IMG/VR virus record: IMGVR_UViG_3300005512_000050
Span: 1 to 50,076 of that record
Reading direction: 5' to 3' (one strand)
Length of the DNA stretch: 50,076 bases
Origin: a virus
Taxonomy: Duplodnaviria > Caudoviricetes
The translations under genes and the position numbers were made by a program. The notes below the pieces were generated by a model. It saw only the letters and a list, made by a program, of their open reading frames with translations, was not told where the DNA came from and ran no database searches. Shown here piece after piece: positions 6,277 through 42,213 of this stretch (positions are counted from its first letter, which is position 1; each line of letters begins with the position of its first letter).

Positions 6277-6308
6277 TACACTTCCATTTTACTAGGAGAA
6301 TTTAATAA

Positions 6309-12976: not shown

Positions 12977-13006
12977 AAGAATGGGGGCAATTAAGCCCCC
13001 TTTTTT
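12976..13006. terminator. bidirectional intrinsic terminator
   Basis: GGGGGC-AATTAA-GCCCCC hairpin with T run on the plus strand and T-rich tail on the minus strand, between convergent arms. Confidence 0.85.
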
Positions 13007-18133: not shown

Positions 18134-18335
18134 TTTTCAGTTCTTCTCTTTGGTTACGAATTACTTCCATATGTTTCATAGCACGAACTATAGGTTGGTT
18201 TTCATCATACTTTTTATTACTACTAGTTTTATTACTAGAAAGTAAACCCATAGTTGGTTTTTTAACTTCTTGTTTTATAGAGCCAAGATTTCCATCTATT
18301 TGCTTATACAGCATTATTGCTGGATTGTTTATCAT
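18126..18335 (-). CDS. hypothetical protein
   Basis: Overlapping start/stop with both neighbours. Confidence 0.55.
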   Translation of the reverse strand: MINNPAIMLYKQIDGNLGSIKQEVKKPTMGLLSSNKTSSNKKYDENQPIVRAMKHMEVIRNQREELKNG

Positions 18336-22519: not shown

Positions 22520-24064
22520 TTACCTTCTATCGTTCGTTGTATATTCAATTGTTACTGCGTCTAATGTAAATGGTGGTATATTATCATTAGAATCTATTTG
22601 CAATGCTGCAGTAAATCCTGAACCTATTAATTGAGTTTCAAAAGTATTTTCAAGAGATGCATCACTATATGTAGCTATTCCAAATTTAGAAGTTATACTT
22701 CCGTAAGTAAATAAATCATCTGTTACATTTGAAAATGTTATGGAGTTTGGTTGAATTAAACCTGTATTTTGCCTATCAAAATCTAACTTTAATGAAACAT
22801 CTGCTTGTACACTACCTGTCGGGTCTGTGTATAAAAATAATTTGTAAAATGTTTTTCTAACTCGTGGGTCTTGAAAAGCAATATAAGGTGTTCTAAATGA
22901 TGATACTATATTAGTACCATCAAACTGTCTTCCTCTTTCTAATCTGTACACATAGCCATCGTTATTTGCAAAATATATAAATTCTTCACCGCCATCATAC
23001 TCACTGTAAGTAGCATAGGCTTTTATACCTCGTGTTTCTGCCCATGCCATTTGAGAACTTTCTAATAACTGCGTTCCCAATATACCCAGAGCAGATTCAA
23101 CAGATATGTTTTCATCAAAACCAAATATTCTATACTGACTTTTTTCTCTAATTACTAAACTGGAAAAACTCGTTGAGTTATTTACTACGTTTGTTATTTC
23201 AGACTGTATAGATTTTGATACAACAGATAAACCAAAGTCTCCAATTTTTTCTGTAGCACCAAGAAGTCTTAGTCCATCTGGACCTAGAAACATAATGTCT
23301 CCACCTACTTCTTGTGCTGTATCAGTTTCAATAGCACCCAAATCATCCGATATAGGTTGTAATACAAAATCAGCAATACTATTTCCTACTAATCTTTTTA
23401 TGCTATCTTGTGTAAAAATAATTAACTGTTCTCTAAAAACAATTAAGTCTGTTATTATACCACCAACATCTATATCACCAGCACCTTCAGCTAAATTAAA
23501 TAAAGAAGAAACTCCTGAATCTTTTTGTTGTGAATCTAAATCTGCATAACCTTCTGTATATACAAGTTTTGTTCCATTTGCAATAAATATAGCATTTTTA
23601 AATACTGTTACAAAGTCTGCACCTTCCACTGCACTAGGTGCTTTAGTTAAAGATGTAAAGGTAGAATTGTCATACGTAAAAGGTTTGTTTAAACCGTCTA
23701 CTACTATAAACTTTTCATTACCGTCAAAATTATACTTCGCAAATCTTACTTTACCTGTACCGCCTAAAGATGTTGATACAGATGTCCAACCGCTACCTGA
23801 AGACTTATATAATGTTGTACCCCTTGCAGCATATATATTTGTTTTATATCTTAAAAGACCTCTAATTACTCCGCTACCAGATAATTGATTGTCATCAGCT
23901 TTAATAAAACCTGCTAGTCTTCTATATCCACCTTCAACTGATGGTTCATAGTTTTGCAATATAGTAGCAGAACCGGGTGCATTAAGACCTTGCTGTAAAG
24001 GACTTAGGTTAGTTACTAACCCACCACGAAACTCTATAGGAAATGTTTGCCAAGCGTCTGCCAT
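22520..24064 (-). CDS. tail nozzle / stabilization protein (tubular protein B-like)
   Basis: 514 aa beta-rich protein after the adaptor gene; podoviral gene order. Confidence 0.7.
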   Translation of the reverse strand: MADAWQTFPIEFRGGLVTNLSPLQQGLNAPGSATILQNYEPSVEGGYRRLAGFIKADDNQLSGSGVIRGLLRYKTNIYAARGTTLYKSSGSGWTSVSTSLGGTGKVRFAKYNFDGNEKFIVVDGLNKPFTYDNSTFTSLTKAPSAVEGADFVTVFKNAIFIANGTKLVYTEGYADLDSQQKDSGVSSLFNLAEGAGDIDVGGIITDLIVFREQLIIFTQDSIKRLVGNSIADFVLQPISDDLGAIETDTAQEVGGDIMFLGPDGLRLLGATEKIGDFGLSVVSKSIQSEITNVVNNSTSFSSLVIREKSQYRIFGFDENISVESALGILGTQLLESSQMAWAETRGIKAYATYSEYDGGEEFIYFANNDGYVYRLERGRQFDGTNIVSSFRTPYIAFQDPRVRKTFYKLFLYTDPTGSVQADVSLKLDFDRQNTGLIQPNSITFSNVTDDLFTYGSITSKFGIATYSDASLENTFETQLIGSGFTAALQIDSNDNIPPFTLDAVTIEYTTNDRR

Positions 24065-25165: not shown

Positions 25166-26371
25166 CTATGCAGCTTTCGCTGTCCTGTCTCTTGTAGTGC
25201 TTTGTCTCTGTATGTATACTGTTCTATTTTCATATGGTACTTTAACTGTTCGTTCGCTTGAAGTAGTTTGACTTTCTACATAAACTGTTCTGCTTTCCGT
25301 AGCAACATTAGCTGTCCTATCTTTTGCTGTAGTTTGTCTTGCTACATATACTAATCGTCTTCGGTCATAATTATCTGCATTATTTAAATAACTAAATGTT
25401 ATTCCAAGTATGTCATTAATATTTGAGGTAGCTGATAAGTTTGCAGATACTTCAAATAAAACCAGCATTTCAGCATCGTTTACTAAACTGCTACCAGATA
25501 TGTTAGCATCAGCTAATCCTCTAAGTGTTGCTTTACTATTTGTTTCTGTTAAGCCACTTATATTAGCACTATTAATTGCTAACTTAGTGCTATCACCCAC
25601 AGTGTTTGACACACCACTTATATTAACTGTAGGATTAGATACCTTAGTTATAGCACTATTCGTTACTGAATTAGCAGATACATCGCCCGATACGTCTCTT
25701 ACTTTCGTTGCAGAAACATCATTTGTAGAACTTATACCTGATAAGTTAATATTTGTTATTGCTTTTTTAGTAGCACTAGATACTGTTTGACCACTAGCTG
25801 ATAAGTTAATGCTAGTTATTAGTTTTGCCGTAGCTACAGAACTTGTACTAGAAGTTGCTGACAGATTTGTGGACACATCTTTTAGTTTATCAGGAGATGC
25901 TTTAGTATTAGCTAAACCAGATACGTTAGAAGAGTTTATTCTTAGGCTTGTCGCATCTACATTTGCATCAACTGTTCCTGAGATATTAGCAGACAATACC
26001 TGTGTGACTGTATTAGCTATGTCATTAGTTGAACCACTGCCAGAAACATCAGATTCAACGCGAAACTTTGCTGTTGCTACAACGTCACTTACGGTTGTAC
26101 TACCTGCTATATCAACTATACGTGCATTTCTTATTCTGTCAGCAGAACCTACTTGAGAACCTGTTCCAGATAAATCGGCAAAAGCATTTCTTACTCGTAT
26201 CGCACTAGAATCTGTACTTGTTGTACCGCTTACGTTAGTAGATAAAGGAAACCTTTTGGTAACAGTAATATTAGGTGTGTTACCATTACCTGAAACATTG
26301 GCAGATACTTCATGTACTACAAAACCTTCAGAGGAAAATGGGGCTTCTGAAAATGATGAAGAACTAAACAT
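25166..26371 (-). CDS. Ser/Thr/Asn-rich repetitive structural (fibre-like) protein
   Basis: Recurrent N[ILV]S[GA] units about every 19-20 aa; C-terminal RTV[YK]V repeats. Confidence 0.55.
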   Translation of the reverse strand: MFSSSSFSEAPFSSEGFVVHEVSANVSGNGNTPNITVTKRFPLSTNVSGTTSTDSSAIRVRNAFADLSGTGSQVGSADRIRNARIVDIAGSTTVSDVVATAKFRVESDVSGSGSTNDIANTVTQVLSANISGTVDANVDATSLRINSSNVSGLANTKASPDKLKDVSTNLSATSSTSSVATAKLITSINLSASGQTVSSATKKAITNINLSGISSTNDVSATKVRDVSGDVSANSVTNSAITKVSNPTVNISGVSNTVGDSTKLAINSANISGLTETNSKATLRGLADANISGSSLVNDAEMLVLFEVSANLSATSNINDILGITFSYLNNADNYDRRRLVYVARQTTAKDRTANVATESRTVYVESQTTSSERTVKVPYENRTVYIQRQSTTRDRTAKAA

Positions 26372-26381
26372 AACTGACCTA

Positions 26382-27386
26382 TTAAATTAAAGAACTTGTC
26401 GGTAAAGTGACTGAGCCTGTGTTCCATATATCATAAAAATTAGGGTCATCTACTCGCACAATAAACTCAGAGTATTGGGCTGATATCATCTGATTGTCTG
26501 AGATTCTGAGGTTGGTTGTTGGTGACCAATTAACGAGGTTGCTGTTTGTGCCTCTAGCATTGATGTTATAATTTATAGTGCTACCATTCACATTAATCCA
26601 TATCATTGCGTATCTGCCGTTTGATGGGTCAACACCAGAATAAACATAGTTCCATCTATTGTTTGTAAGAGTACCAGACTTCTCTGCATCAACCCTATTA
26701 TTGCCACTTCCCCAAGAAGTCAGCATAAATGGGTCAGGTGTAGTAGCAGTGCTGTAGTTTTCTACATACTGTCCATCAGTAGAAGAACCAGAACCACCTA
26801 TAATATGATATTTGCCCCAACTGCCCTGCCAAGAAGTGCCGTTGGAGTACCACCAGTAGCTAATAGAAAATGGTGTAGACAAGTTTTGTATATTGCTAGT
26901 CCAACTCGCAGGAACGGTGAGGTAAGACCCATTGCCTGTTTTCTCCCACGCTGTAGTGTGACCGACAGGGCTAGTACCAAGTATAGTCTTTACTGAATGA
27001 TTACTGCCATTGACAGTAAACCAATCAACATTCTCTGTGGCTTCCTGACTGTCTGATGCAGATGTATAGGCTTTTATATTAGCCATAGTTGTGTTGTTTG
27101 CATCGTTGAATGGAACATATAGAACTACGTCAGTTGGCACTAGTAACTCAGGTTTATACCAGACAACTGTATCACCTGAGTAAACTGTATGAACATAAGT
27201 TGAGCCATGATATATTTCTACGGGTGCTGAAGAGCCTATCTTAAGTTTGTCAGTGATTATCGTACCATCATGCACAGGCGCACCACTAAGACCTGACCCT
27301 GCGGTAGCAGAACTAGGGTACGCACCAAGTCCAGATACATTCATTCCCTTGTAATAACCAAGACCACTTATTTTTGGAGCAGCCAT
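26382..27386 (-). CDS. LamG/ConA-like domain receptor-binding or appendage protein
   Basis: VLYVPFND, FSISYWW and NNRWNYV patterns typical of LamG-like domains. Confidence 0.55.
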   Translation of the reverse strand: MAAPKISGLGYYKGMNVSGLGAYPSSATAGSGLSGAPVHDGTIITDKLKIGSSAPVEIYHGSTYVHTVYSGDTVVWYKPELLVPTDVVLYVPFNDANNTTMANIKAYTSASDSQEATENVDWFTVNGSNHSVKTILGTSPVGHTTAWEKTGNGSYLTVPASWTSNIQNLSTPFSISYWWYSNGTSWQGSWGKYHIIGGSGSSTDGQYVENYSTATTPDPFMLTSWGSGNNRVDAEKSGTLTNNRWNYVYSGVDPSNGRYAMIWINVNGSTINYNINARGTNSNLVNWSPTTNLRISDNQMISAQYSEFIVRVDDPNFYDIWNTGSVTLPTSSLI

Positions 27387-29476
27387 TAGTAAGTCTCCGC
27401 ATAGGCATCATGGATGTATAAACGCTCTGAAGTATTACTTGTTGCTGTTAAAAACTCTATGAAAACAAGTACTGAGTTTATTGCCCGTAGCCCAGATGCA
27501 GGCGTTATAATGTTATGAATGATACCCGTTGGTGCTGTCTGGTCAGACGATATAGTCGCATATGCAACAGAGGTATTAATAGTTTCATTACTAGTATTAG
27601 ACCTATAAAAATAATAGATGTTCACAGCATTTGTAACATCACTACTGCGACTTAAAATTAACTGAAGTCTAGCGTTGTCTTTAGTTGTATCTGAGCCTGC
27701 TGGATTAAAATCAGATGGTACTTGCACCTCCAAACCATAGACATATTTGCCTCCAGTTGCACCACCATTTTGCAACACGACAACCTCATTGCTATCTACA
27801 GTTTCGTTGTAAGCTAGACCAGCACTGCTTGCCGCCCCTGCTGTATCTGGCATAATAATAAGTGGTTTATTGTCATAATCATTTGTCTCTACAGCAAGGT
27901 TTGGTGGAAATATTGTAGATGTTGTTGAAAGAGTTATGCCTAGTACTGTCGATATATCGTTTGCTGTTGTTTTATAATTAGAACTACCGCAAGCAAGGTA
28001 ACCATAATCTTTAATAGGCAATTTACTGTAGGTTGTGTCTTGCCTTATCCCTACAATTTCCCACCAATTTGCCGCTGTTAATTCTAGGCTTGATGTAAAC
28101 GGTGATGTATTGTTTGCAGTTGATATTAGTGAGCCTATCTTGGGATTTCTATTTACGGCTGTTGCAGAGGAAATGCCACTAAGCCAATGCCCTGCTTCAC
28201 CTGCTCTATATAAGTTAGTTGGATAAACGTAATTGGTAGGAGTATAGTCTGAACGGTCTCCGTTTAACGCAGAGGTGTTTGCGCTACTCAATTGAGAGTA
28301 ATAACTAGACCCCTCCAAAAACTCTACAGTGCTTGTGCCTCTATTATTAAAACTTAAAAAACCACGAGCGTTAGTGCCAGTAGTAGCTCTTTGATAAATA
28401 CTTCCAAACTTCATGCGGTTAGTACCTGTTACACCACTATTTAAAAGTAAGGTACTCGCAGATGATATTGTTAAATTAACTTGAGAAATAGCACCTGTGA
28501 CAGATGCATCTACTTGAATGTTTTTGCCTGTCATTACACCTACTTCTAATGTAGAAGCTTTGTCATTTAACATTCTCTGCTCGTAGTCTGCATTTTGAGC
28601 AGACATAAACTCACCAAGCTTATGATGCACTCCTGCTTTTATAGGCTGAAATCTAAAATACATTCTCCTAGAAGCTTGGCGAAGAAACAAACGTGACCAA
28701 TCAAATGTACACGCTTGACCTCGAATATGTTGACGCTCGTATGTATCTGATTGCGATAGTGAAACTAAGGAATAACCATTCTGTTCGGTCTCACTCGTCC
28801 ATCCTGCGCTAGATGAAGTAACTAGTCCATTAGTGCTAAACCAATGATACTTGTCTCCGTTGCTCAGAGCGTGTGATGACAAATATCCATTCTTAATAAA
28901 TGCTAAATCGCAGAAGTTACCTGCAACACCGTCTTGATTAAACTTAGTAAAGCCTGCTTCGTTAATGGCATTGTATAATGCTCGTCCATCATTGTTGTTT
29001 GCAGTACTCCCTAAATACATTTCTGTAGTTGTTGCACTATTAGGGAAAGGTAAAATCAAAGGAAATGTGACGATGCCAGATACGTTTGGAAACATATCAT
29101 CAATGTTAGAACCACTGAGATGAAGCCAATTGTTATAAACGTCCGAACTGCCTGCAACAGTTGCATATGTGGTGTTGCCACTTTCGGGGCGCATATAACC
29201 ACCACTAAGATATGTTGCACCCATAGATGTAGTCATGTCAGACATTGGCTTACCTTTGATACGCACCTCTGTATCAGCCGCTATAGTAACCCCATTAACT
29301 GTGGTTGCAGTTTGACTGTTACTTTGCCAATCATCAAACCGAAATGGATTAAGGTACGTGCCTGTTCTTGATGCGGCTGTATTGTAATTTACAGTGTCAG
29401 TTCCGTGACCTAGTATTGTTGTGTCTGACAGAGCTACAGCCCCGGGAATGAAGGGGTCTATCCATACTACTGGCAT
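27386..29476 (-). CDS. putative tailspike/receptor-binding protein
   Basis: 696 aa beta-rich protein in the fibre cluster. Confidence 0.45.
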   Translation of the reverse strand: MPVVWIDPFIPGAVALSDTTILGHGTDTVNYNTAASRTGTYLNPFRFDDWQSNSQTATTVNGVTIAADTEVRIKGKPMSDMTTSMGATYLSGGYMRPESGNTTYATVAGSSDVYNNWLHLSGSNIDDMFPNVSGIVTFPLILPFPNSATTTEMYLGSTANNNDGRALYNAINEAGFTKFNQDGVAGNFCDLAFIKNGYLSSHALSNGDKYHWFSTNGLVTSSSAGWTSETEQNGYSLVSLSQSDTYERQHIRGQACTFDWSRLFLRQASRRMYFRFQPIKAGVHHKLGEFMSAQNADYEQRMLNDKASTLEVGVMTGKNIQVDASVTGAISQVNLTISSASTLLLNSGVTGTNRMKFGSIYQRATTGTNARGFLSFNNRGTSTVEFLEGSSYYSQLSSANTSALNGDRSDYTPTNYVYPTNLYRAGEAGHWLSGISSATAVNRNPKIGSLISTANNTSPFTSSLELTAANWWEIVGIRQDTTYSKLPIKDYGYLACGSSNYKTTANDISTVLGITLSTTSTIFPPNLAVETNDYDNKPLIIMPDTAGAASSAGLAYNETVDSNEVVVLQNGGATGGKYVYGLEVQVPSDFNPAGSDTTKDNARLQLILSRSSDVTNAVNIYYFYRSNTSNETINTSVAYATISSDQTAPTGIIHNIITPASGLRAINSVLVFIEFLTATSNTSERLYIHDAYAETY

Positions 29477-33409: not shown

Positions 33410-34468
33410 CTATGCCAAGTTGTAGATTGCGTTTACAAGACCTTCAGGACGAAGTATCTTGCGACCGTACAAATGCATACCACGAACAATGTCAGCAAAG
33501 CTGTCAGGGTCACGATATGTCTCAGTCTTATTGATTTGCTCTGCAGTAGCAACAGCAGAATCATGTCCTGCAACAATCACACCAAAGTTAGTGCTGTTAG
33601 TTCCACCTGTTGTTCCTGCACCTGTACCAAGTGATGGCAAGTTGTTAGAAACATACACACGGAAACCATGTAGATTGTTTAGGATAAGACCGTTCTGTAG
33701 TCCTGAACCACCAAAGTCTGCGTTCAATAGACGAGAATCTTCGTCCATTAGCAATTCTTTGAATACAGGGTCAATAACTACCCAACGTCCTTGTGAGTCC
33801 ACATTTTGCTGGTCTAGCTTACGTGCCATACGAGCAAGTACTGTTAGTGGAAATGTTGCACCTGAACCCGGAGTAGCATCTGTAGTAGCTGCTGTGCGAG
33901 GCTCAAGAGCAATGGAGTTAGAAGCAGAACCACCAAAGTCACTTGCATCAAGTTTCATTGAAGCTAGTAGTTCGTCAGAACCAGCGGTTGTTACTGCCTT
34001 TGTACCATTAACAGTTGTGTTAGCTGTATCAGCATTTGTGTGTAAAGCAGACTGTGTATAACCAGACAAGTAGCCAAGAACGTCTTGGTCAAACTGGTCA
34101 GCCAAACGGTATGCCGCACGGTCAGATGCTAATGATTGGAAGTTCACATGTGAATGTGCTTCTTCAATGTCATCAACCTTAAATGCAAAGTAATTAGCTT
34201 TGTCAATTGTAAGGCTGAAGTCTTCATCGTCTAGGTCTTGTGCAGTGATTTGTGTGCCACGTGCATAAGCCTGAACTGAGATTTCGGGTTCTTTGATAAT
34301 CTTAACGGAATCACCCATGTTAGCAATCTCACCGAAATAATCGGAATTTGAAATTGCTTCAGCAACGGCAGACTTGCGGAAAGCAAGTTGTACCTGTTTG
34401 CTGTAAATAACTGGGCTAAAATTGCCGTTAGGAAGATTACCATACCCGGCTGCGGATGTAAATGCCAT
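33410..34468 (-). CDS. major capsid protein
   Basis: NLPNGNFSPVIYSK, GEIANMGDSVKI, FADIVRGMHLYGRKILRP; strong RBS; follows scaffold. Confidence 0.9.
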   Translation of the reverse strand: MAFTSAAGYGNLPNGNFSPVIYSKQVQLAFRKSAVAEAISNSDYFGEIANMGDSVKIIKEPEISVQAYARGTQITAQDLDDEDFSLTIDKANYFAFKVDDIEEAHSHVNFQSLASDRAAYRLADQFDQDVLGYLSGYTQSALHTNADTANTTVNGTKAVTTAGSDELLASMKLDASDFGGSASNSIALEPRTAATTDATPGSGATFPLTVLARMARKLDQQNVDSQGRWVVIDPVFKELLMDEDSRLLNADFGGSGLQNGLILNNLHGFRVYVSNNLPSLGTGAGTTGGTNSTNFGVIVAGHDSAVATAEQINKTETYRDPDSFADIVRGMHLYGRKILRPEGLVNAIYNLA

Positions 34469-34708: not shown

Positions 34709-35578
34709 TTATCTAGCAGAGCCAGATACATCATAGATAAACTTTCCAGAACGGATAGCTTCCATGATTTCGTCAGATTGCTTCTCATACTCTTGAGGCG
34801 ACATCTTCTGAACTTGAGATTCTCTTAGATAGGTAGAAGCCTCATTCTCTTGTGGCTTAGACCGTGTATTTTTCGTATTAACCGCTTCAGCAGCACCCTT
34901 GCCATTTTTGCTTGGTTTTGCCTTGCTAATATTTCTATCTGATTTATATAAGTCAATTGCTCGTGCGGCAGATTTTGCATCGTTGTCATTCTCGTATAGT
35001 GCCTCCTGCACCCATTTAGGTTGTTCTTCTGCCCACTCGTGAAAGTCATCACTGTCTCTGATATCACCAAAGTCAGGATGTATTCTCATCAATTCGGCTT
35101 CTGCTTTCTCCTTCGTAGCCGATAATTGCATCTCATCAATTGCTTTCAATCTTTCTTCTAAATCGCTAGATTGTTCTCTAGCTTTCTTCATAGCAATTGT
35201 TTCTACTATTGCAGCTACATCAGGATATTCTGTTGCCCATGCTTCAATGTCCTCATCAGACTTGGGCAACTTCATCTCTTTTTTAGTAGCTTCAGATAAC
35301 TGGCGTTTTAAAGTTTCCAGTTCTGCTTTAAACTCTTCAGCTTGTTTCTGCTGATGCCTACGTAAGTCAGAGTATCTTTTCTTAAAAGTCTTTTCTTCTG
35401 CGTTAGTAGGTTCTGCTTCTTCAGGTTCAGCAGTTTCTACCTCACCCTTCTGCTCTTTCATCATCTGTTCTAGTTCTTCTTCGTCACGCTTGATGCGTTC
35501 CTCTTGTGTATAAGGCTTAGATACAAATGCTTTCTTCTCTGGTGACTTCATTTCTTCAGCCATGATTGTGTCAGACAT
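34709..35578 (-). CDS. capsid scaffolding protein
   Basis: Acidic coiled-coil, FKKRYSDLRRH; directly upstream of the capsid gene. Confidence 0.75.
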   Translation of the reverse strand: MSDTIMAEEMKSPEKKAFVSKPYTQEERIKRDEEELEQMMKEQKGEVETAEPEEAEPTNAEEKTFKKRYSDLRRHQQKQAEEFKAELETLKRQLSEATKKEMKLPKSDEDIEAWATEYPDVAAIVETIAMKKAREQSSDLEERLKAIDEMQLSATKEKAEAELMRIHPDFGDIRDSDDFHEWAEEQPKWVQEALYENDNDAKSAARAIDLYKSDRNISKAKPSKNGKGAAEAVNTKNTRSKPQENEASTYLRESQVQKMSPQEYEKQSDEIMEAIRSGKFIYDVSGSAR

Positions 35579-35649: not shown

Positions 35650-38379
35650 TTATTTTTTAGAGGCTAATCCACCTGACCTCATCTGTTTAGGTTGTTTAAT
35701 TTCTTTTTCCATTAAACCACCTTTTGCTCTACCGCCTGTTGCTAATCTTCCACCACTACTAGTAGAACTTTTAATGGCTTCTTTAATGCTTTTTGCTTTG
35801 TCTTTAGAGAAATTAGAGGTTAGCTTTTTTTCTCTTTCTTTGTCTTTTTTATTTTGTTTTCTTTTTTCTTCATCTTTTACTAGTTGTTTTTGAATTTCAA
35901 TAGACCTTTGCTTACGGGCTGCCTCTTTTGCTTTTGCTATAATATCTTCAAAATTACTTTCTTTTTCTTCTTTGCGTAACTCTTCAGCTAACTTTATTTC
36001 ATTTACAGTTTTACCCGATAAATACGTTTTTGAAAAATTATTACTGTCTTCTTGTGCTTTTTCTCTATCTTCGTTACTACCACTTTGTAGTGCTTTTGCT
36101 ATTGAATTAGAAACTTTTTTAATTTCATTTGATGCATTAGTAGCAGACATTATTGTTGGGTCTTTATCTATAATTAAACTAACTAAATCATTTTGAAATT
36201 CTTCGGATTTTTTAGGAAGTTCAGATGGATTAAAAAATTCACCTATTTGACCTATTATACTTTCTTTTTGAACATAGCGACCAGTTATAGGGTCATATAA
36301 ATTACCCATACCATCTGCTATATAACCATTTACAACTTGACCCTGTTTGAAGTTACCCCCAAACATAGAGCCTATAGCAGTAGATTTAAAAAGTTGTTCA
36401 AATGGATTTATTACATCCATAAATCCTAACCTTTGTGCTTCTTTAATTCTAGCTTGCATATTTTCATAGCCAGAAAAATCTGGTGAACCATCATCATCGT
36501 CTTTACGCACCTGTGCCTGACCAACAGTAGGTGTTACAGATACTTGTTGTGCATCAGGTGCATCGTACTCACTAGCCAAAACAAAACCTTCTGGTAATTG
36601 CGTTACACCGGGAATGTATGTTATAGTTCTTTTCTCACCTGTTGTTGGATTAATTATCTCTACAGTTTGTGGTGCAGATTCAGGTGTTTGTACTACACCC
36701 GGATATGATACATCTTGCATTTGTTCAGGTGTAAATGTAGGTACTGCTTGTTGTTGTGCTGGTGTATAAGTTGGTGCAATAGGTGTTGTTGCCTGTGTAG
36801 GCTGTTGCACTGTTGGTGTTACAGGTGCTTGTGGTTGTGATACAAAGGATGTAGCAGGTACTTGTGACGGCACATAACCAGATATACCAGTAGCAGGTAC
36901 TTGTGACGGCACATAACCAGATATACCAGTAGCAGGTCCTAGTAGTCCACCCTGTTGCAATTCTACTGTATCGTTATTATACTCTTCTTCATCGTCCATG
37001 TCAAGGTCTGTTAATTCAAAAGGTAAATTATCTGGCATAACAGCTTCTTCACTATTGCCCATTTGCCCCATGTCTTCCATAGTCTGCAAACCCATCTTAG
37101 CTTGCTGTCTCATCTGCATTAGCTTTTCAAGACCAATGTATCGCACTACATCTGCAGGAAATACAAACTCACCTTCACTTAATTGTGCAGGTATATCATC
37201 ACGTACTTCTTCTTGTGTAGAGCCGGGTGGAACATCATTGCCTGATACAGGGTCTATTGTATTACCTTCGTCTTTAAGACCACCATCTTCAAACATTTCC
37301 ATTTGTTTTGACATCCCACCTTCTGCAAACTTTTGTGATTTATCCATATCTAATTCTGCAAATTGATAATCGTCCATTACATCACCACCCTTTGACATTT
37401 CTTTTAATTCTTTTAATGTTGGTAGGTCTTCAACACCAGCTTCTCTATTTAATTTTTTTACTTCGTCTGCATCAAGTACACGATTAACTTTCATCTGACC
37501 ACTTATTAGCCAATTACCTTGCATATTAGGATTTGTTTTATATCTATAAAAACCACCTAAAGGTATTTCCTCAGTAATTTGTGCCTCAGAAGTATTAAGT
37601 AAGCCTTTGCGTTTTCCAGACTTTACAATAGACGCATTTGAATCTGCCACCTTTTGCCAATCTACGTCTGCTGGCATTTCTACTTCAGCCCATACTTGGT
37701 CTTCACTTCTGTACTTTTTACCATTAATTTCGTTACCTATATGCGGAGCAGCAGGTGTATCTCCAGCATGCCATCCCGGTCTTAGAGCAACTGCTTTAAC
37801 ACTTTTTGCTTTTGAACCCTTTGGTAAAAAACCTTTTTCAATAAGTATATCACGAGTTTCTTGGTCTGGTATTGGTATGCTATCACCAGTTCCTTTTTTA
37901 CCTCCCGTTCCTTTTGATGGAACATACTTTTTGCCATTAGCGGAAGTAAAAGTAGATTCAGGTATTACTGCATCTATAAACTCACCTTGTTTTACAGGAG
38001 TATCTGCATCAACAAAAAGAGGATATAAATTTCCGTCTTCACCTTTTGTAAATAACTTATATGCTTTTACAGTTTTTTTAGGTTTAAAAGTTCTAAGTGC
38101 TTTACCTGCCATATCTCCTACTACAGGAATTAAACCCAAAGCACCTGCCGCAGTTTCTATACCAGCACCTACATAATCTTTTTCATCTATAGCATCTGAT
38201 ACACGTTTGACTGCCATGGCTTCCCCAACTCCGGGAATAAACTCTGCCGCACCTTTTGCTATATCAACTTTTGATTCATCTAACTTTTCAATAACATCAC
38301 CAGCAGTTTTTTTTGTAGGACGTTCTACAGTACCACTAGGTTCTCGTGTCATAAATCCTGAAGGTTGTTTAAGTGCCAT
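35650..38379 (-). CDS. 909-aa multidomain protein: pre-toxin-like helices, putative enzymatic domain, 'GEFV' core, variable tail
   Basis: EFIPGVG...LIPVVG; AYKLF...RPGWH...VWAEVE; DDIPAQLSEGEFVFPADVV; several xxGG motifs. Confidence 0.6.
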   Translation of the reverse strand: MALKQPSGFMTREPSGTVERPTKKTAGDVIEKLDESKVDIAKGAAEFIPGVGEAMAVKRVSDAIDEKDYVGAGIETAAGALGLIPVVGDMAGKALRTFKPKKTVKAYKLFTKGEDGNLYPLFVDADTPVKQGEFIDAVIPESTFTSANGKKYVPSKGTGGKKGTGDSIPIPDQETRDILIEKGFLPKGSKAKSVKAVALRPGWHAGDTPAAPHIGNEINGKKYRSEDQVWAEVEMPADVDWQKVADSNASIVKSGKRKGLLNTSEAQITEEIPLGGFYRYKTNPNMQGNWLISGQMKVNRVLDADEVKKLNREAGVEDLPTLKELKEMSKGGDVMDDYQFAELDMDKSQKFAEGGMSKQMEMFEDGGLKDEGNTIDPVSGNDVPPGSTQEEVRDDIPAQLSEGEFVFPADVVRYIGLEKLMQMRQQAKMGLQTMEDMGQMGNSEEAVMPDNLPFELTDLDMDDEEEYNNDTVELQQGGLLGPATGISGYVPSQVPATGISGYVPSQVPATSFVSQPQAPVTPTVQQPTQATTPIAPTYTPAQQQAVPTFTPEQMQDVSYPGVVQTPESAPQTVEIINPTTGEKRTITYIPGVTQLPEGFVLASEYDAPDAQQVSVTPTVGQAQVRKDDDDGSPDFSGYENMQARIKEAQRLGFMDVINPFEQLFKSTAIGSMFGGNFKQGQVVNGYIADGMGNLYDPITGRYVQKESIIGQIGEFFNPSELPKKSEEFQNDLVSLIIDKDPTIMSATNASNEIKKVSNSIAKALQSGSNEDREKAQEDSNNFSKTYLSGKTVNEIKLAEELRKEEKESNFEDIIAKAKEAARKQRSIEIQKQLVKDEEKRKQNKKDKEREKKLTSNFSKDKAKSIKEAIKSSTSSGGRLATGGRAKGGLMEKEIKQPKQMRSGGLASKK
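36851..36937. repeat. perfect 39-bp tandem duplication (about 2.2 copies)
   Basis: GTAGCAGGTACTTGTGACGGCACATAACCAGATATACCA twice, plus GTAGCAGGT. Confidence 0.95.
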
Positions 38380-38581
38380 TTACCTCATTCCGTAAATATT
38401 TAAGTTTTCGGAGTACTGCTATTGCGCCTTGTTGTCTATGTACTAGTATTGAATCATCTGTCTGTTCTAGTACTTTCTGGTGTTGTTCTATTATTAAGTT
38501 TATATAATCACTGAACGCTTCCCACTGGCGGTTGTTGTTCACTAGGGGCTTGAGTTTGCTGAGTACCTGCTGTCTGTCCAT
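38369..38581 (-). CDS. small portal-adjacent hypothetical protein
   Basis: AAGGA RBS before ATG 38581; HRQQGAIAVLRKLKYLR; overlaps the portal 3' end. Confidence 0.6.
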   Translation of the reverse strand: MDRQQVLSKLKPLVNNNRQWEAFSDYINLIIEQHQKVLEQTDDSILVHRQQGAIAVLRKLKYLRNEVNGT

Positions 38582-40643
38582 TTGCGCTAAATCCTTGTTC
38601 ACCCGGAACTGGTGCTTGTCCTGTTCCTATGTTACCGCCACCTGCACCTGTTGGGTCTAATGGATTAGCCCCTGCTGGTGCGCCTTGTTCTTGTGGCTGT
38701 TCTTGTTGGAAGCCTTTCATCAGTTCTGCCTGAATAGCGGCTTCATCCATATTGTTGGTAACTTTGTCGGGGTCTAACTCCATAGATTTTGCAATCTCAC
38801 GGATAATATATTGGAACTTAGCAAACGGTGCAAGTGCTGGATTGCTTGCTACCTGTAAGAACTGCATTAGTCTTTGACTACGTACTTCGTTAGCCATTAG
38901 ACTTTCTGTACCTCTTGCTCTTACTTCTAAGTCACCTTTTATTTGTGGGTCATAATCAAACTGCATATTAAATCTAAACAGTCCTTCTCCTAAAGGACGT
39001 AATAGATAATCATCTACGTTCTTAATAACAGTCTTTGTGCCACCTGCTGCAGCATTCATCAACATAGATATACCACTAGCAGTTCTACCTACACCTGATA
39101 CACCTGTCTGACCATGTGCAAAGGATGGGAAGCCTGTGCTTTCATCTGCAAGTACACGAGCCTTGTCAAACAGCATCATGTTCTCACTAGATACATTCGG
39201 GAACTTTGTACCAAATATAGCCTGACCCGGTGCGCCACCTTGTCTACGGAACACCTTGCCCGGATATAGTGATAAGTCTTGACCCGGCACTAGGTTTGTC
39301 TCATCAACCTCTACAATCAAATTGCCAGACAATACAGCATTGTCAACAGCCATACGCATAAAGCCATTCATTAATGTCTGTGTATCGTCCATGTTTTCAG
39401 CGATACCTACACCAAAGAATGAGTATGGGTTTAACTCATATGGTGCAGCATGGTATGGTATTCTAGCAGGTTTGAATGGATTAAGTACCATACGTAGTAG
39501 CTTACCATTACAAATCCATACGTTAGCCTGTAACTCATCAAATGTTTTCAGTTCTTCTGGTATCTCTACATCTGCTTCTTCAAGCACATCTGTATCAACA
39601 GTACCCCAATACTCAAGAACATCAAATCGTTCTACACCGTGTTCTGGTGCATAGTCAGATAAATCATCTTCCCAGTATTCTTTGATGTAGTTCTCACCCA
39701 TCTGGATGACTTCATCAATTACGTTTCCTCTGAACATCGGCCTCTTTTTGAGATTCCGTAATTGCGACCTTGACATCTTGTGTCGTTCAATGACATACTG
39801 CGCTTCATCCATATTATTGGCATCAGGGTCAGGATAGAAATTCCATACAGAAACATGGGTAACTTGTGGCATTGTTTTGAAAACTGGGTCATACTCACCG
39901 TCCTCATTCCAGTTGGGATATTCTTTGTCAATAGCAAATGGACCTTTCATAACACCAGTTCCAAATAATGCCATTTCAAATGCAGAGTTTCTAAGATGCT
40001 TACTTGCACCTGATTCTTCTAACTGGTCATGTATTTTCTTCTGCATCTTCTTTGCAGCCACCATAGCTGGGCTAAAGGTAACTGAGGTAGGTGTCATACC
40101 CGGACCTTCTTTAAGCCCGTCTATACCGCTTAATTTGTCCGTTAAAGGACCAAGCATTTCTTCTAGTGTCTTTGCTGTAGCACCCGGTGGTAAGTCTCTA
40201 CCATCACCAGCAAATCCGTATGGGCTACTTAGTGCAGTATCACCACGTAATTGTTCTGGTTCTTGTGGGTCAAAGTTGACATCTGCGACAACTCCTTCTG
40301 GCAACTCAGTAGGTTCAACAGAGACAGGAAAACGATTATTAGCAAAAAGGACATCAACGATTTGCCCATAAGCTGCCAAAGTTTTTGTTTTTGTAACCTT
40401 GATAAAGACACGTGACTTCTCCGATTCAGTAAACTGTACATCAGGTCCGTATAATCCACGGTAATTACGATAGGCTTTTAGCCAACGCTGTTCATCTTGA
40501 TAGCGATAGTCTTCTGCTCTTTTATACTTTTCACGAATGAATGGTACGATTGAAGATACATCAGCATCTTCTGTTGTGCTATCCTCAGTATCTTCTAAGG
40601 CGATAGCTTCATCTTCAATCATTACATTTTCATCTTCTGCCAT
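38508..40643 (-). CDS. portal protein
   Basis: 711 aa after the terminase; LFGTGVMKG, WNFYPDP, FFGVGI and RTASGISML motifs. Confidence 0.9.
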   Translation of the reverse strand: MAEDENVMIEDEAIALEDTEDSTTEDADVSSIVPFIREKYKRAEDYRYQDEQRWLKAYRNYRGLYGPDVQFTESEKSRVFIKVTKTKTLAAYGQIVDVLFANNRFPVSVEPTELPEGVVADVNFDPQEPEQLRGDTALSSPYGFAGDGRDLPPGATAKTLEEMLGPLTDKLSGIDGLKEGPGMTPTSVTFSPAMVAAKKMQKKIHDQLEESGASKHLRNSAFEMALFGTGVMKGPFAIDKEYPNWNEDGEYDPVFKTMPQVTHVSVWNFYPDPDANNMDEAQYVIERHKMSRSQLRNLKKRPMFRGNVIDEVIQMGENYIKEYWEDDLSDYAPEHGVERFDVLEYWGTVDTDVLEEADVEIPEELKTFDELQANVWICNGKLLRMVLNPFKPARIPYHAAPYELNPYSFFGVGIAENMDDTQTLMNGFMRMAVDNAVLSGNLIVEVDETNLVPGQDLSLYPGKVFRRQGGAPGQAIFGTKFPNVSSENMMLFDKARVLADESTGFPSFAHGQTGVSGVGRTASGISMLMNAAAGGTKTVIKNVDDYLLRPLGEGLFRFNMQFDYDPQIKGDLEVRARGTESLMANEVRSQRLMQFLQVASNPALAPFAKFQYIIREIAKSMELDPDKVTNNMDEAAIQAELMKGFQQEQPQEQGAPAGANPLDPTGAGGGNIGTGQAPVPGEQGFSANGQTAGTQQTQAPSEQQPPVGSVQ

Positions 40644-40653
40644 TTTCTATTCC

Positions 40654-42213
40654 TTAATATCCAAAGGTTGAATCTGCTACTTGCATACCACCACCCGGTC
40701 TTCCATGTGGGTCATAATCAAATATACTAAATCGTGGTCTTGACATTATACCATATCTCATCGCATCGTACAAGTGGTCTTCTGCAGTCGTGTCAATATC
40801 TTCTGGATTGCGTTTGTCAATCGGCAAGGCAGGTAACTGTGAGATAATGTTTGTACAACTACTAAAGAAAACAAGTCTAGGCTCTTCCGTATATTCATCT
40901 ACTTGTAGTCGTCTGTGTATTTCGTTTTTACCAGCAACACGACTACCTCTGCTTCTATCTGATGGTCGCCATCTGCAACCCTTCTGTATCATTTGCTCTG
41001 CAAGGCTAGGACCAGTATCACCACGCTTATGCCAAAGAGAACTGTCAAGAACACCATACTTAATATTGCCATCGCCAGATTCTAAGTCCAACACCATATC
41101 GGCTAAATCAGTTGCGAGTACCTTAGAGGTGTATAGTTCTCTGTAAACAATGAGTTGCTCACTAGGACTAACGGCAAACCAAACCACGCCACTGTATGAA
41201 CCATAGCCATAGTCACATGCTCTAAACTTAACCCAGTTGTTAGGTATATCAAAAGGCTCAACAACATGGATATCCCGATTAAATTCGGTAAACGCTGCCC
41301 CTTCTTTAATATCCCAATCACCTTCAAGCAACTGTCTACGTTGTTGTTCAGGAAGCGAAAGAAGCATAGCTTCGTAGTCACCTGCGTCTGATAGGTACGG
41401 GTTGTCAGATAATCGTGCCGGGATGAACCTTCGCTTAAATAAGGCTTTACCAGCTTTGCTGTGTCCTGCTGGATATCTAAGAACTTCGCCAGTTTCAATA
41501 TCTGTGGCATCAAATGCTTTACCGTATGCTGATGGGTCAATGAACATTTTCTTCACCCAGTGATGACCTCTTCCACCGGGGTTAGTTGTAGCACGCATAT
41601 AAATAGGCAAGTCAGGGGCAGTGGACCTTAAACGAGAACGCATGTAATTCCATGCATATGGTGACTGCCACTGTGTTAACTCGTCAAAGCCTATCCAGCT
41701 AAACGCTAGACCCTGATAGCGAAGAACGTCATCATCTCTATCCAGATAAGACATCCACAGTCTCGCACCAGAAGGGGCAGTCCACTGCATCTTTCTTTCC
41801 GACCACTTTATGCCGGGCCATATTTTTGGGTACAACTCTTGAGATTTAAATATAAGTTCTCTAAGTTCTTCTGTTGTATGTCGTAACAGCAATCCACTAA
41901 ATGCTGGATGCCCCATATAACGTAGTGGGTCTGCTAACATGGCGTAAGACTTACCACCACCTGCTGAACCACCGTAGAGTACCTCACGTTCCCCTGCAGC
42001 TAGAAAGTCTGTCTGAGGTCCGGGGTTTGGTTTAAATAAGACATTAGCGTGTTCTTCTTCTTTAAACTCATCTATATCAATGTCTTTAATTTCAACCGTT
42101 GGCTTTTGCGCCTGTTCTTTCTTCTTCAAGGGCTTTCGCCTTGGCGATTGCCTTTTCCGCATATTCTGCCCACTTGCGGATGCTTGCAACTTGGTTCTTA
42201 CGTTGTCGCTCAT
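40654..42213 (-). CDS. terL: terminase large subunit (start uncertain; TTG at 42129 possible)
   Basis: YGGSAGGGKS, IGFDELT, ATTNPGG, RACDYGY and EDHLYDAMRY. Confidence 0.92.
   Translation of the reverse strand: MSDNVRTKLQASASGQNMRKRQSPRRKPLKKKEQAQKPTVEIKDIDIDEFKEEEHANVLFKPNPGPQTDFLAAGEREVLYGGSAGGGKSYAMLADPLRYMGHPAFSGLLLRHTTEELRELIFKSQELYPKIWPGIKWSERKMQWTAPSGARLWMSYLDRDDDVLRYQGLAFSWIGFDELTQWQSPYAWNYMRSRLRSTAPDLPIYMRATTNPGGRGHHWVKKMFIDPSAYGKAFDATDIETGEVLRYPAGHSKAGKALFKRRFIPARLSDNPYLSDAGDYEAMLLSLPEQQRRQLLEGDWDIKEGAAFTEFNRDIHVVEPFDIPNNWVKFRACDYGYGSYSGVVWFAVSPSEQLIVYRELYTSKVLATDLADMVLDLESGDGNIKYGVLDSSLWHKRGDTGPSLAEQMIQKGCRWRPSDRSRGSRVAGKNEIHRRLQVDEYTEEPRLVFFSSCTNIISQLPALPIDKRNPEDIDTTAEDHLYDAMRYGIMSRPRFSIFDYDPHGRPGGGMQVADSTFGY

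What the first reader, a model, noticed from the sequence alone, without database searches (positions are those of the whole stretch)
35650..38379. Polymorphic-effector-like fusion protein between portal and scaffold
Seen: residues ~44-96 (AEFIPGVGEA...GALGLIPVVGDMAGKAL) resemble helical pre-toxin segments of polymorphic toxins (PT-TG-like). Residues ~100-325 look globular, with AYKLF, LYPLFV, RPGWH, VWAEVE and YRYKTNPN; the aromatic-basic / G-x-H / ExE order recalls an ADP-ribosyltransferase-like fold. MSKGG (aa 328-332) then leads into a core with DPVSGN...DDIPAQLSEGEFVFPADVV, a P/Q/T linker and a charged tail. Known: MuF polymorphic toxins occupy this portal-to-scaffold position, and T4 injects the ADP-ribosyltransferase Alt. 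Inference: a swappable N-terminal effector is packaged, released at GG and injected, possibly for host takeover or anti-defence. No obvious immunity gene is adjacent.
Basis: partly seen in the sequence, partly recalled or inferred. Interest (0 to 1): 0.8.

Follow-up and report, generated by a model that had tools for sequence, protein, structure and literature searches.

The report
Swappable cargo protein beside phage portal
In this marine phage, the gene next to the portal gene encodes a modular protein: its middle piece is almost unchanged in thousands of relatives, while its front end is swapped for different enzyme-like modules, here one whose predicted fold resembles an ADP-ribosyltransferase. 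It is therefore probably a carrier for proteins delivered into the host, but no experiment shows this.

Summary
The 909-aa ORF (35650-38379, minus strand) and every quoted motif are real. The window is a 91%-complete uncultured HMO-2011-type podophage, with the gene order TerL, portal, 77-aa ORF, this gene, scaffold-like gene, capsid gene.

**Swappable front end: supported.**
- A 136-aa core (aa 340-475) has 57 invariant columns in 56 orthologs.
- The sequence before the core ranges from 0 to 1206 aa.
- HMO-2011 gp49 starts exactly at the core. Other orthologs carry a phage lysozyme or other modules.

**Seam motif.** A [F/L/K/M/Y]-x-x-G-G motif precedes the core in 62 of 63 fused orthologs. 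Here it reads FAEGGM, which matches the mapped cut in the phage T5 tape measure (R|AEGGMM). The core also resembles lambda gpH 732-782.

**Not supported or untested.** PT-TG and MuF membership are not supported. Cleavage, packaging and injection are untested.

**Verdict.** This is a new variant of phage polyvalent cargo proteins. The scan noted similar Gly-Gly seams before on other DNA.

The parts
35650..38379 (-). Whole ORF, 909 aa: modular portal-adjacent protein
   Evidence: ORF list; translation
38086..38319 (-). aa 21-98: glycine-rich helical segment ('Nhel') with two P-x-x-G motifs. It holds the most hydrophobic stretch of the protein (aa 69-88, Kyte-Doolittle 1.5).
   Evidence: Found in 145 of 372 related proteins, 25 of them without the following domain. 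It precedes at least three unrelated downstream segments. Hydropathy. No PT-TG match.
37390..38085 (-). aa 99-330: passenger domain ('Dom'), an unnamed polyvalent-protein domain with a weak ART-like predicted fold
   Evidence: phrog_30118 E 7e-43. 1399 representative clusters. Invariant residues R200, H204, H213, R224, Y278, K281. AF2 model pLDDT 93.5. VIA-align hits.
37315..37398 (-). aa 328-355: linker with two seam motifs, MSKGG and FAEGG. The boundary between passenger and core lies here.
   Evidence: GG lies within 45 aa after the domain in 117 of 203 unique tails. x-x-G-G lies before the core in 62 of 63 fused orthologs, and 15 unfused orthologs start here. T5 cut site R|AEGGMM.
36955..37362 (-). 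aa 340-475: conserved core (QMEMFEDGGL ... DDIPAQLSEGEFVFPADVV ... MGQMGNSEE ... acidic tail)
   Evidence: 5935 clusters at E<=1e-3. 57 invariant columns in 56 sequences. hhalign to lambda gpH 732-782 scores 32.0, with 0 of 200 shuffles as high. Weak PHROG tape-measure hits.
36460..36954 (-). aa 476-640: P/Q/T-rich linker containing a perfect 13-aa tandem duplication and a conserved IP..PEG motif
   Evidence: Composition; tandem repeat 36851-36937; consensus of orthologs
35800..36459 (-). aa 641-860: poorly conserved C-terminal region that ends in a K/E-rich charged stretch
   Evidence: Few relatives share it; composition
35653..35799 (-). aa 861-909: basic C-terminal tag ending ...AKGGLMEKEIKQPKQMRSGGLASKK
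   Evidence: 42 of 49 unique C-terminal ends of orthologs carry GGLAS(K/R) after a K/P-rich stretch; alignment consensus
38369..38602 (-). 77-aa ORF between portal and this gene, overlapping both. It is conserved in position whatever the passenger.
   Evidence: Present in 70 of 80 related loci. No family match.
38508..40643 (-). Portal gene (context)
   Evidence: Pfam SU10_portal E 4e-27; phrog_332 E 3e-84
34709..35578 (-). Scaffold-position gene (context)
   Evidence: phrog_13678 E 2e-76, function unknown. Present downstream in 69 of 80 loci.

Best explanation
The gene encodes a modular virion cargo or ejection protein of an HMO-2011-type podophage. It is a small relative of the 'polyvalent' proteins that phages are thought to pack into the head and release into the host with the DNA.

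**Constant part.** This is a 136-aa core plus a basic C-terminal GGLASKK tag. The core resembles the glycine-rich GEFVF region at the C-terminal end of siphophage tape-measure proteins, which are themselves ejected and cut there. I infer that the constant part places the protein in the particle, in or near the portal channel.

**Swappable part.** Everything before a conserved [F/L/K/M/Y]-x-x-G-G seam is a swappable passenger. In this phage the passenger is a glycine-rich helical segment followed by a 230-aa domain. That domain is widespread in giant polyvalent proteins and probably has an ADP-ribosyltransferase-type fold.

**Inferred function.** The passenger is delivered to the host at infection, perhaps after a cut at the seam. 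There it acts on a host molecule, possibly using NAD+.

**Shown versus inferred.** Shown: the modular anatomy, the seam, the distribution and the co-occurrence with polyvalent-protein domains. Inferred: packaging, cleavage, delivery and catalysis.
For: **Synteny.** TerL, portal, 77-aa ORF, this gene, scaffold-like gene and capsid gene lie in this order in the window. The same order holds in related IMG/VR loci: portal seen in 69, the small ORF in 70 and the scaffold-like gene in 69 of 80 loci, many of which are truncated.

**Core.**
- 5935 clusters at E<=1e-3 among 6034 candidates.
- 57 invariant columns in 56 sequences.

**Variable front.**
- The part before the core is 0-1206 aa long in 66 complete ORFs.
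- HMO-2011 gp49 starts at the core.
- 9 of 45 orthologs with a front extension carry Pfam Phage_lysozyme2, 2 carry Phage_L5_gp82 and 1 carries LPD23.
- Split forms exist, with the passenger as a separate abutting gene.

**Seam.**
- 62 of 63 fused orthologs have x-x-G-G within 16 aa before the core. 15 unfused orthologs start at that point.
- The T5 tape measure pb2 is cut after R1127 (passages of PMC10038345). That position reads R|AEGGMM, against KF-AEGGMS here.

**Tape-measure likeness.**
- hhalign of the core against lambda gpH 732-782 gives E 1.2e-3 and score 32.0. Shuffles average 14.6 with a maximum of 23.7, and 0 of 200 reach 32.0.
- PHROG tape-measure families match at E 5e-4 to 0.12.
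- gpH is cut in its glycine-rich C-terminal region (passages of PMC12617516).

**Passenger domain.**
- 1399 clusters, in proteins of 206-3337 aa.
- Of 22 giant carriers, 10 have ART-PolyVal, 5 have LPD38 and 4 have DUF7178. LPD39, M15 peptidases, PBECR5, RadC and GNAT also occur.

**Precedent for packaging.** An LPD38-bearing 2811-aa polyvalent protein was detected by proteomics in virions of podophage phi24B (passages of the preprint).
Against: - No virion proteomics exists for any HMO-2011-type phage in the passages and section read (the search listings name none).
- No prohead protease was recognised among the window ORFs scanned, so what would cut the seam is unknown.
- Foldseek finds nothing below E 0.2.
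- Pfam, NCBIfam and PDB sequence profiles do not match.
- hhalign of the domain against an ART-PolyVal profile gives 8% probability.
- I could not map catalytic residues because model coordinates are not returned.
- The window protein has only one enzyme-like module, so it is a minimal rather than a typical polyvalent protein.
- The lambda gpH similarity has only 19% hhalign probability, and Pfam Tape_meas_lam_C does not match the core.
Confidence: 0.6

Rival explanations
1. It is a purely structural or assembly protein of the head or neck, for example an internal plug, a head-completion factor or a scaffold helper. The variable front modules would be binding or decoration domains without enzymatic or host-directed action. 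The 230-aa domain would be a non-catalytic, pseudo-ART-like binding module.
For: - The gene sits in the head-assembly block.
- The core and C-terminal tag are far more conserved than any passenger.
- The VIA-align lists include pseudo-enzymes such as the TASOR pseudo-PARP and PARP13.
- No canonical H-Y-E or R-S-E triad could be assigned.
- 14 of 66 complete orthologs have 5 or fewer residues before the core and so no passenger. The passenger is therefore dispensable for particle formation.
Against: - Orthologs carry a phage tail lysozyme (9 of 45). Relatives of the domain sit beside peptidoglycan hydrolases, nucleases and ART-PolyVal. These act on host molecules.
- The domain has many invariant polar residues (R200, H204, H213, R224, E232, E234, D238, D240, K281), which is typical of a ligand or active site.
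Confidence: 0.2
2. The protein is made late but not packaged. The passenger would act inside the producing cell, for example against a host defence or in take-over late in infection. The core would only couple its synthesis or location to head assembly.
For: Nothing here shows packaging. Stand-alone 206-270-aa forms of the domain exist, and these need no carrier.
Against: - The fusion to a strongly conserved core in the head gene block is hard to explain this way. So is the tape-measure-like seam, and so are the lysozyme passengers, which are useful only from outside the wall.
Confidence: 0.1
3. It is a MuF-type polymorphic toxin with a PT-TG pre-toxin segment. It would be released from lysing cells or particles to kill competing bacteria, and would be neutralised by an immunity protein.
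For: The position after the portal gene matches. The two P-x-x-G motifs in a helical segment before a variable domain recall PT-TG; this pattern is recalled, not tested. The MuF toxin family is described in PMC5576092 (search listing and abstract start only).
Against: - No Phage_Mu_F or PT-TG match, even at E up to 10.
- The variable part is N-terminal to the constant part, the reverse of MuF toxins.
- The only small neighbour (the 77-aa ORF) is present whatever the passenger, in 70 of 80 loci, so it is not a cognate immunity gene.
- In the phage collection, matches were found only in marine HMO-2011-type phages.
Confidence: 0.03

Closest known systems
Phage polyvalent proteins (Iyer, Burroughs, Anand, de Souza, Aravind 2017, PMC5512222; abstract and sections 9 and 29 read)
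   Same: - Multi-module protein encoded among virion genes.
- Its 230-aa domain co-occurs with ART-PolyVal, LPD38, LPD39, DUF7178, PBECR5, RadC and peptidoglycan hydrolases in giant proteins.
- Solo forms of the domain exist, as the paper notes for LPDs.
- Predicted delivery with the DNA.
   Different: - Only one enzyme-like module here.
- The constant anchor is not MuF or any listed head domain but a new 136-aa core with a tape-measure-like motif.
- The domain matches no Pfam LPD model.
- The paper's supplementary domain alignments could not be seen, so the domain may be listed there under a name.
C-terminal glycine-rich region of siphophage tape-measure proteins (lambda gpH about 690-853, cut to gpH* and gpHC; T5 pb2, cut after R1127)
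   Same: - Shared local pattern: aromatic-A-x-G-G, about 20-40 residues, then G-E-F-V-F, then I-G...L.
- The T5 cut site R|AEGGMM equals the seam AEGGM here.
- Tape measures are ejected into the envelope, and some carry hydrolase passengers.
   Different: - This is a podophage gene in the head block, with no long coiled-coil ruler.
- Pfam Tape_meas_lam_C does not match.
- hhalign probability is only 19%.
- Cleavage is not shown here.
ADP-ribosyltransferase superfamily (RES toxins, Arr, PARPs, diphtheria-toxin group, DarT, ParT, Tpt1)
   Same: The predicted fold of aa 99-330, and of a 206-aa solo homolog, aligns over 100-130 residues with these and almost nothing else. The domain is often adjacent to true ART-PolyVal domains.
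   Different: - There is no sequence-profile link.
- No canonical catalytic triad was assigned.
- The strand-1 position appears to hold a conserved Lys (K108) rather than His or Arg. This is inferred from alignment ranges only.
MuF polymorphic toxins of temperate phages (Jamet et al. 2017, PMC5576092; search listing and abstract start only)
   Same: The gene follows the portal gene, and a constant virion-associated part is fused to variable modules.
   Different: - No MuF domain.
- The variable part is N-terminal.
- No immunity gene.
- The hosts are marine oligotrophs, and subgroups IV-X of HMO-2011-type phages lack lysogeny genes (PMC9038755, section 17).
Phage T4 Alt (packaged, injected R-S-E ADP-ribosyltransferase; described in PMC5512222 section 9)
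   Same: It gives the concept of an ART-type enzyme carried in the head and injected.
   Different: Alt is a separate protein of a different ART clade with a capsid-targeting leader. No similarity was found or tested here.

Membership tests
Phage polyvalent proteins (Iyer et al. 2017) | Encoded by a phage or plasmid, among virion or transfer genes | tested here: met
   The gene lies between the portal and scaffold or capsid genes of an HMO-2011-type phage.
Phage polyvalent proteins (Iyer et al. 2017) | Two or more domains of disparate biochemical activity in one polypeptide | tested here: inconclusive
   The window protein has one enzyme-like domain plus non-enzymatic modules. Close relatives add an ART-PolyVal-like insert seen by jackhmmer, though Pfam's own model does not match it. 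Other relatives add lysozyme, SleB or SLT domains.
Phage polyvalent proteins (Iyer et al. 2017) | Shares domains with the polyvalent-protein domain network | tested here: met
   The domain occurs with ART-PolyVal in 10 of 22 giant carriers, LPD38 in 5 of 22, DUF7178 in 4 of 22 and LPD39 in 2 of 22, and also with PBECR5, RadC and LPD23.
ADP-ribosyltransferase superfamily | ART fold (split beta-sheet core) by structure comparison | tested here: inconclusive
   [not shown]
ADP-ribosyltransferase superfamily | Catalytic residues on strands 1, 2 and 5 (H-Y-E, R-S-E or H-Y-D) | not testable with these tools
   Model coordinates and residue-level structural alignments are not returned. The invariant polar residues are listed, but their placement in a cleft is unknown.
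ADP-ribosyltransferase superfamily | Match to an ART sequence profile | tested here: not met
   No Pfam family at E up to 10 other than StbA_N at 0.064. hhalign against an ART-PolyVal profile gives 8% probability. The PDB profile search finds no ART.
PT-TG pre-toxin domain (Pfam PF14449; accession recalled) | Match to the family profile | tested here: not met
   Not listed for aa 1-94 at E up to 10, nor for any of 12 diverse members. HMMER filters drop most matches above E 0.1.
MuF polymorphic toxins | N-terminal MuF (Phage_Mu_F) domain | tested here: not met
   No Pfam match for the whole protein at E up to 0.1, nor for the core or C-terminal part at E up to 10.
MuF polymorphic toxins | Variable C-terminal toxin with a cognate immunity gene downstream | tested here: not met
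   The variable part is N-terminal to the constant core. The next gene is the conserved scaffold-like gene in 69 of 80 loci.
Tape-measure protein, lambda-type C-terminal region (Pfam Tape_meas_lam_C) | Match to the family profile | tested here: not met
   No Pfam family for the core at E up to 10.
Tape-measure protein, lambda-type C-terminal region (Pfam Tape_meas_lam_C) | Local similarity to lambda gpH around GGFTG...GEFVF | tested here: met
   hhalign E 1.2e-3 over 50 columns at 32% identity. The score is 32.0 against a shuffle maximum of 23.7, with 0 of 200 shuffles as high.
Tape-measure protein, lambda-type C-terminal region (Pfam Tape_meas_lam_C) | Long helical ruler encoded in the tail gene block | tested here: not met
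   The gene lies in the head block of a podophage. The region after the core is P/Q/T-rich and poorly conserved.

The most novel reading that the evidence does not exclude
HMO-2011-type phages are among the most abundant viruses in the sea. They may carry a plug-and-play delivery locus in which a core derived from, or shared with, tape-measure proteins anchors the protein in the particle.

An aromatic-x-x-G-G seam, the same peptide that T5 cuts in its tape measure, would release whatever module is fused in front. The module in this phage would be the founding member of an undescribed, catalytically active clade of the ADP-ribosyltransferase superfamily, present in more than a thousand protein clusters and injected to modify a host target.
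Probability: 0.25. Interest if true: 0.75.

Novelty: new variant of a known kind. Interest (0 to 1): 0.55.

Why it matters
- **A handle on a dominant marine phage group.** If the model holds, the gene after the portal in this group is a general carrier for host-directed enzymes. Its constant core and seam would give a simple sequence handle for finding injected effectors in metagenomes.
- **A link between podophage and siphophage proteins.** It would tie podophage internal proteins to siphophage tape measures through a shared motif and perhaps a shared processing step. The protease for that step is still unknown, even in lambda.
- **A candidate enzyme family.** The 230-aa domain is a large unnamed family with a confident model and invariant polar residues. 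It is a good candidate for a new NAD+-using or phosphate-binding enzyme.
- **If it does not hold.** The practical gain is a better annotation of a gene that is 'hypothetical protein' in every phage record that matched.

Tried and rejected
- **Family libraries.** Pfam, PHROGs and NCBIfam on the whole protein and its parts name only phrog_30118 and phrog_12224, both of unknown function.
- **PT-TG.** Not matched in 12 members at E up to 10. The sub-threshold matches were to membrane-protein segments: Spore_III_AE in 7 of 12, DUF4112 in 5 of 12 and Diphtheria_T in 3 of 12. I take these only as a hint of membrane-like helices.
- **PDB sequence searches.** The whole protein, the domain profile and the core profile gave nothing meaningful.
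- **Foldseek.** Against PDB, both models gave no match. Against BFVD, only uncharacterised homologs appeared.
- **hhalign of the domain against an ART-PolyVal profile.** 8% probability.
- **ESM Atlas.** For the domain, ART-PolyVal appeared only at rank 7 with score 0.75. For the core, the nearest named cluster was crAss cargo protein 1 at 0.82. Both are below the level the tool trusts.
- **Complex prediction, portal plus core.** No answer (score 0.00), which counts neither for nor against binding.
- **GG dipeptide count in this protein.** Not above chance. The signal is in conservation at the seam, not in number.
- **ART-PolyVal-like insert in the closest relatives.** The jackhmmer call (P0001-P0008 except P0002) is not confirmed by Pfam's own model at E up to 1. 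Only the FH(A/G)TK start motif fits.
- **Papers on HMO-2011-type phages.** I read passages and section 17 of PMC9038755 and passages of PMC4819975. Neither discusses this gene. Their supplementary tables were not available.
- **Earlier notes of this scan.** Nothing by place, and nothing by the core's sequence.
Full report
**1. Observation**

The ORF is real. One search lists 35650..38379 on the minus strand, 909 aa, and one search prints its translation.
- AEFIPGVGEA 45-54 and ...GKAL to 95
- AYKLF 106-110, LYPLFV 118-123, RPGWH 200-204, VWAEVE 229-234, YRYKTNPN 278-285
- MSKGG 328-332
- the DPVSGN...SEGEFVFPADVV block 376-413

One search confirms a P/Q/T-rich stretch (476-640, 39% P+Q+T) and a basic tail (801-909, 30% K+R).

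**2. Context**

- The window is a single IMG/VR virus record of 50,076 bases, judged 91% complete.
- In the phage collection, the only records with similar proteins are Puniceispirillum phage HMO-2011, eleven Roseobacter CRP phages and one uncultured virus (14 records). This is therefore an HMO-2011-type podophage.
- On the minus strand the order is large terminase (40654-42213), portal (38508-40643), a 77-aa ORF (38369-38602), the target, a scaffold-position gene (34709-35578) and the capsid gene (33410-34468).
- A scan of IMG/VR with the core peptide confirmed 591 of 599 matched stretches. I examined the best 80 loci. The same order holds wherever the contig reaches: portal in 69, the small ORF in 70 and the scaffold-like gene in 69 of 80.

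**3. The constant part**

- Residues 340-475 are extraordinarily conserved. 5935 protein clusters match at E<=1e-3 among 6034 candidates of 499-1591 aa.
- In 56 aligned orthologs, 57 columns are invariant, including DDIPAQLSEGEFV.PADV and MGQMGNS.
- The extreme C-terminus is also a conserved tag. 42 of 49 distinct ortholog ends read ...GGL(A/L).K(P/K)KPK.KKM(K/R).GGLAS(K/R). The window has AKGGLMEKEIKQPKQMRSGGLASKK.
- Between core and tag, only a short IP..PEG motif is shared.

**4. The variable part**

- In 66 complete orthologous ORFs (263-1877 aa), the sequence before the core is 0-1206 aa long, with a median of 237.5. It is 5 aa or less in 14, 6-60 in 7, 61-300 in 20, 301-700 in 19 and longer in 6.
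- HMO-2011 gp49 (762 aa) begins at the residue matching M356 of the window protein.
- CRP-212 gp38 (1203 aa) has the window's N-terminal segment and domain at residues 199-550, a DUF7178 domain at 706-814 and the core near its C-terminus.
- Of 45 orthologs with a front extension, 9 carry Pfam Phage_lysozyme2, 2 carry Phage_L5_gp82, 1 carries LPD23 and 33 carry nothing Pfam knows.
- Only 1 of the 80 loci, and 6 of the 119 best core matches, have the window's domain.
- In seven loci a separate 648-873-aa gene abuts the core gene. In two loci the part after the core is a separate gene. The modules therefore fuse and split.

**5. The seam**

- In 62 of 63 fused orthologs, a [F/L/K/M/Y]-[N/A/K/S]-x-G-G motif lies within 16 residues before the core's QMEMF. 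15 unfused orthologs start with a methionine at that very place.
- The window reads SQKF-AEGG-MSKQMEMF.
- Of 203 distinct sequences after the domain's DLP motif, 117 have GG within 45 residues, 96 of them at offsets 10-19. Several proteins end a few residues after such a motif.
- Earlier notes of this scan, on other DNA, pointed to the phage T5 tape measure, so I checked it. The T5 paper maps the cut in pb2 after R1127 (passages of PMC10038345). In the T5 record that position reads SFVPR|AEGGMMYPGVSYQMGEHGTEVV.
- The pentapeptide AEGGM is identical, and a G-E-x-x-x-E-V-V element follows.

**6. Likeness to tape measures**

- The core profile aligns with lambda gpH 732-782 ([44 protein letters not shown]). 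hhalign gives E 1.2e-3, 32% identity over 50 columns and 19% probability.
- The score of 32.0 was not reached by any of 200 shuffles of gpH, which had mean 14.6, SD 2.5 and maximum 23.7.
- Four PHROG families annotated as tape measures match the same stretch at E 5e-4 to 0.12.
- gpH is cut in its glycine-rich C-terminal region into gpH* and gpHC. The protease is unknown, and gpH* forms the trans-envelope channel (passages of PMC12617516).
- Pfam Tape_meas_lam_C itself does not match the core. I therefore call this a shared motif, not membership.

**7. The passenger, first piece: aa 21-98**

- This piece is a glycine-rich helical segment with two P-x-x-G motifs. It contains the most hydrophobic stretch of the protein (aa 69-88, Kyte-Doolittle 1.5, just under the usual transmembrane level).
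- It occurs in 145 of 372 related proteins. It usually lies a median of 28 residues before the domain. It also occurs in 25 proteins without the domain, where it precedes at least two other unrelated segments.
However, the PT-TG profile matches none of 12 diverse members at E up to 10.

**8. The passenger, second piece: aa 99-330**

- This is a compact domain. A full scan of 1.84 billion representatives finds it in 1399 clusters (1086 at E<=1e-10), in proteins from 206 to 3337 aa.
- Of 22 giant carriers, 10 also have Pfam ART-PolyVal, 5 have LPD38, 4 have DUF7178 and 2 have LPD39. Single carriers have M15 peptidases, PBECR5, PcfJ, LPD23, SleB-type hydrolase, GNAT or RadC.
- A local jackhmmer profile finds ART-PolyVal-like domains in 41 of 253 carriers, often directly adjacent.
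- It is thus a component of the polyvalent proteins of Iyer et al. 2017. No Pfam, NCBIfam or named PHROG model covers it.

**9. Fold of the domain**

- AlphaFold2 models are confident: pLDDT 93.5 for the window's domain and 92.8 for a 206-aa solo homolog.
- Foldseek finds no PDB match (best E 0.25 and 0.22).
- From memory, several further rows (VPA0770, MbcT, Tne2, TreX, TreTu, AcrIF11, TccC3) are also ART-fold proteins.
- I read this as a probable (about 70%) but very divergent ART-type fold.
- Sequence gives no support: hhalign of the domain against an ART-PolyVal profile is 8%.
- Invariant polar residues suggest a ligand or active site: R200, H204, H213, R224, Y278, K281, T282 and D318. Nearly invariant are K108, E232, E234, D238 and D240.
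- I could not place these residues in three dimensions. The alignment ranges suggest that K108 in AYKLF sits where ARTs have the strand-1 His or Arg. That is inference only.

**10. Close relatives**

- The closest relatives are about 80% identical in the domain. P0001 and P0003-P0008 carry an extra module of about 200-215 aa between domain and core.
- That module begins ...NP(I/V)FH(A/G)TK.DF, a typical ART strand-1 start.
- Pfam's ART-PolyVal model does not reach it at E up to 1.
- The lineage has therefore gained or lost a module at this very seam.

**11. How it most likely works**

- *Shown:* a constant core plus tag, a constant seam, freely exchanged front modules that include wall-degrading enzymes, and kinship of the window's module with polyvalent-protein domains.
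- *Inferred:* the core and tag place the protein inside the particle, and the protein leaves through the portal and nozzle at infection. The lysozyme passengers make sense only if the front end reaches the wall from outside. The seam may be cut as in T5 and lambda, and the hydrophobic helical segment may help membrane passage. The domain then acts on a host molecule, possibly with NAD+.
- A polyvalent protein with LPD38 has been detected in virions of podophage phi24B by proteomics. This makes packaging of such proteins plausible, but nothing comparable exists for HMO-2011-type phages in what I could read.
- The 77-aa neighbour is present whatever the passenger, so it is not a cognate immunity gene.
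- A fold test of portal with core gave no answer and counts neither way.

**12. Comparison and novelty**

- The thing works like a polyvalent or cargo protein and meets two of the three features of that class. The third, several disparate activities in one chain, is met by relatives rather than by this copy.
- It is not a MuF toxin and not a PT-TG protein by the tests run. It shares a motif, but not the architecture, of tape measures.
- New relative to print, as far as my searches reach, are three items:
  - the conserved core and tag of the portal-adjacent gene of HMO-2011-type phages;
  - the constant seam and its identity with the T5 cut site;
  - the large unnamed domain with an ART-like model.
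- Within this scan, similar Gly-Gly seams in phage cargo proteins were already noted on other DNA. The core itself was not.
- I rate it a new variant of a known kind, interest 0.55.

**13. Limits**

- There are no coordinates for residue mapping, no HHpred-scale libraries and no supplements.
- The ortholog sets are the best-scoring subsets (80 of 591 loci; 120 of 5935 clusters), so the proportions describe close relatives.
- Jackhmmer results may include drift.

Noticed in passing
window 36851-36937: A perfect 39-bp tandem duplication (2.2 copies, 100% match) inside the gene encodes PATGISGYVPSQV twice in the P/Q/T-rich linker. It looks like a recent slippage event.
   Followed up: partly
window 38369-38602 (minus strand): A 77-aa ORF overlaps the 3' end of the portal gene and the start of the target gene. 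It is conserved in position in 70 of 80 related loci and matches no family. Its function is unknown.
   Followed up: partly
L005:4900-6849, L009:3094-5070, L015:4748-6901, L031:4843-6996, L032:4894-6870, L036:4375-6996, L039:4939-6885: In seven related loci, a separate 648-873-aa gene ends 1-5 bases before the core gene starts. This is where other phages have a fused passenger. These proteins do not end in a GG motif.
   Followed up: partly
L063:4775-5566 and 5563-7455; L068:192-983 and 980-2872: The core protein is only 263 aa here, and the rest is a separate overlapping 630-aa gene. This is a split after the core rather than before it.
   Followed up: no
P0001, P0003-P0008 (closest relatives), residues about 320-550: An extra module between domain and core starts with an ART-like FH(A/G)TK motif. 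A local jackhmmer ART-PolyVal profile finds it, but Pfam's model does not.
   Followed up: partly
P0004 residues 1155-1181: A weak Hint / homing-endonuclease-associated match (Hom_end_hint E 4e-5, 24 bits, below the 32.1-bit cut-off) lies in the C-terminal part of a close relative. It may be an intein.
   Followed up: no
L049:4712-5305 and 5280-6869; L064:1-666 and 573-1106: The portal gene in L049 and the terminase gene in L064 are each split into two overlapping ORFs in these IMG/VR contigs. The cause could be a frameshift, a sequencing error or a real break.
   Followed up: no
window 13005-16565, 16575-17636, 18332-20236, 25166-26371, 26382-27386, 27386-29476 (minus strand): Six large structural-region ORFs (334-1186 aa) match no PHROG at E<=1e-5. 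Those downstream of the nozzle-like gene (22520-24064) are candidates for T7-type internal virion proteins.
   Followed up: no
phage collection hits H29-H37: The GEFV part of the core gives weak tblastn matches (E 2e-4 to 4e-2). The matches are in Pelagibacter phages HTVC027P, HTVC103P, HTVC104P and HTVC115P, in four Rhizobium phages and in one unnamed phage. The motif therefore reaches beyond HMO-2011-type phages.
   Followed up: no
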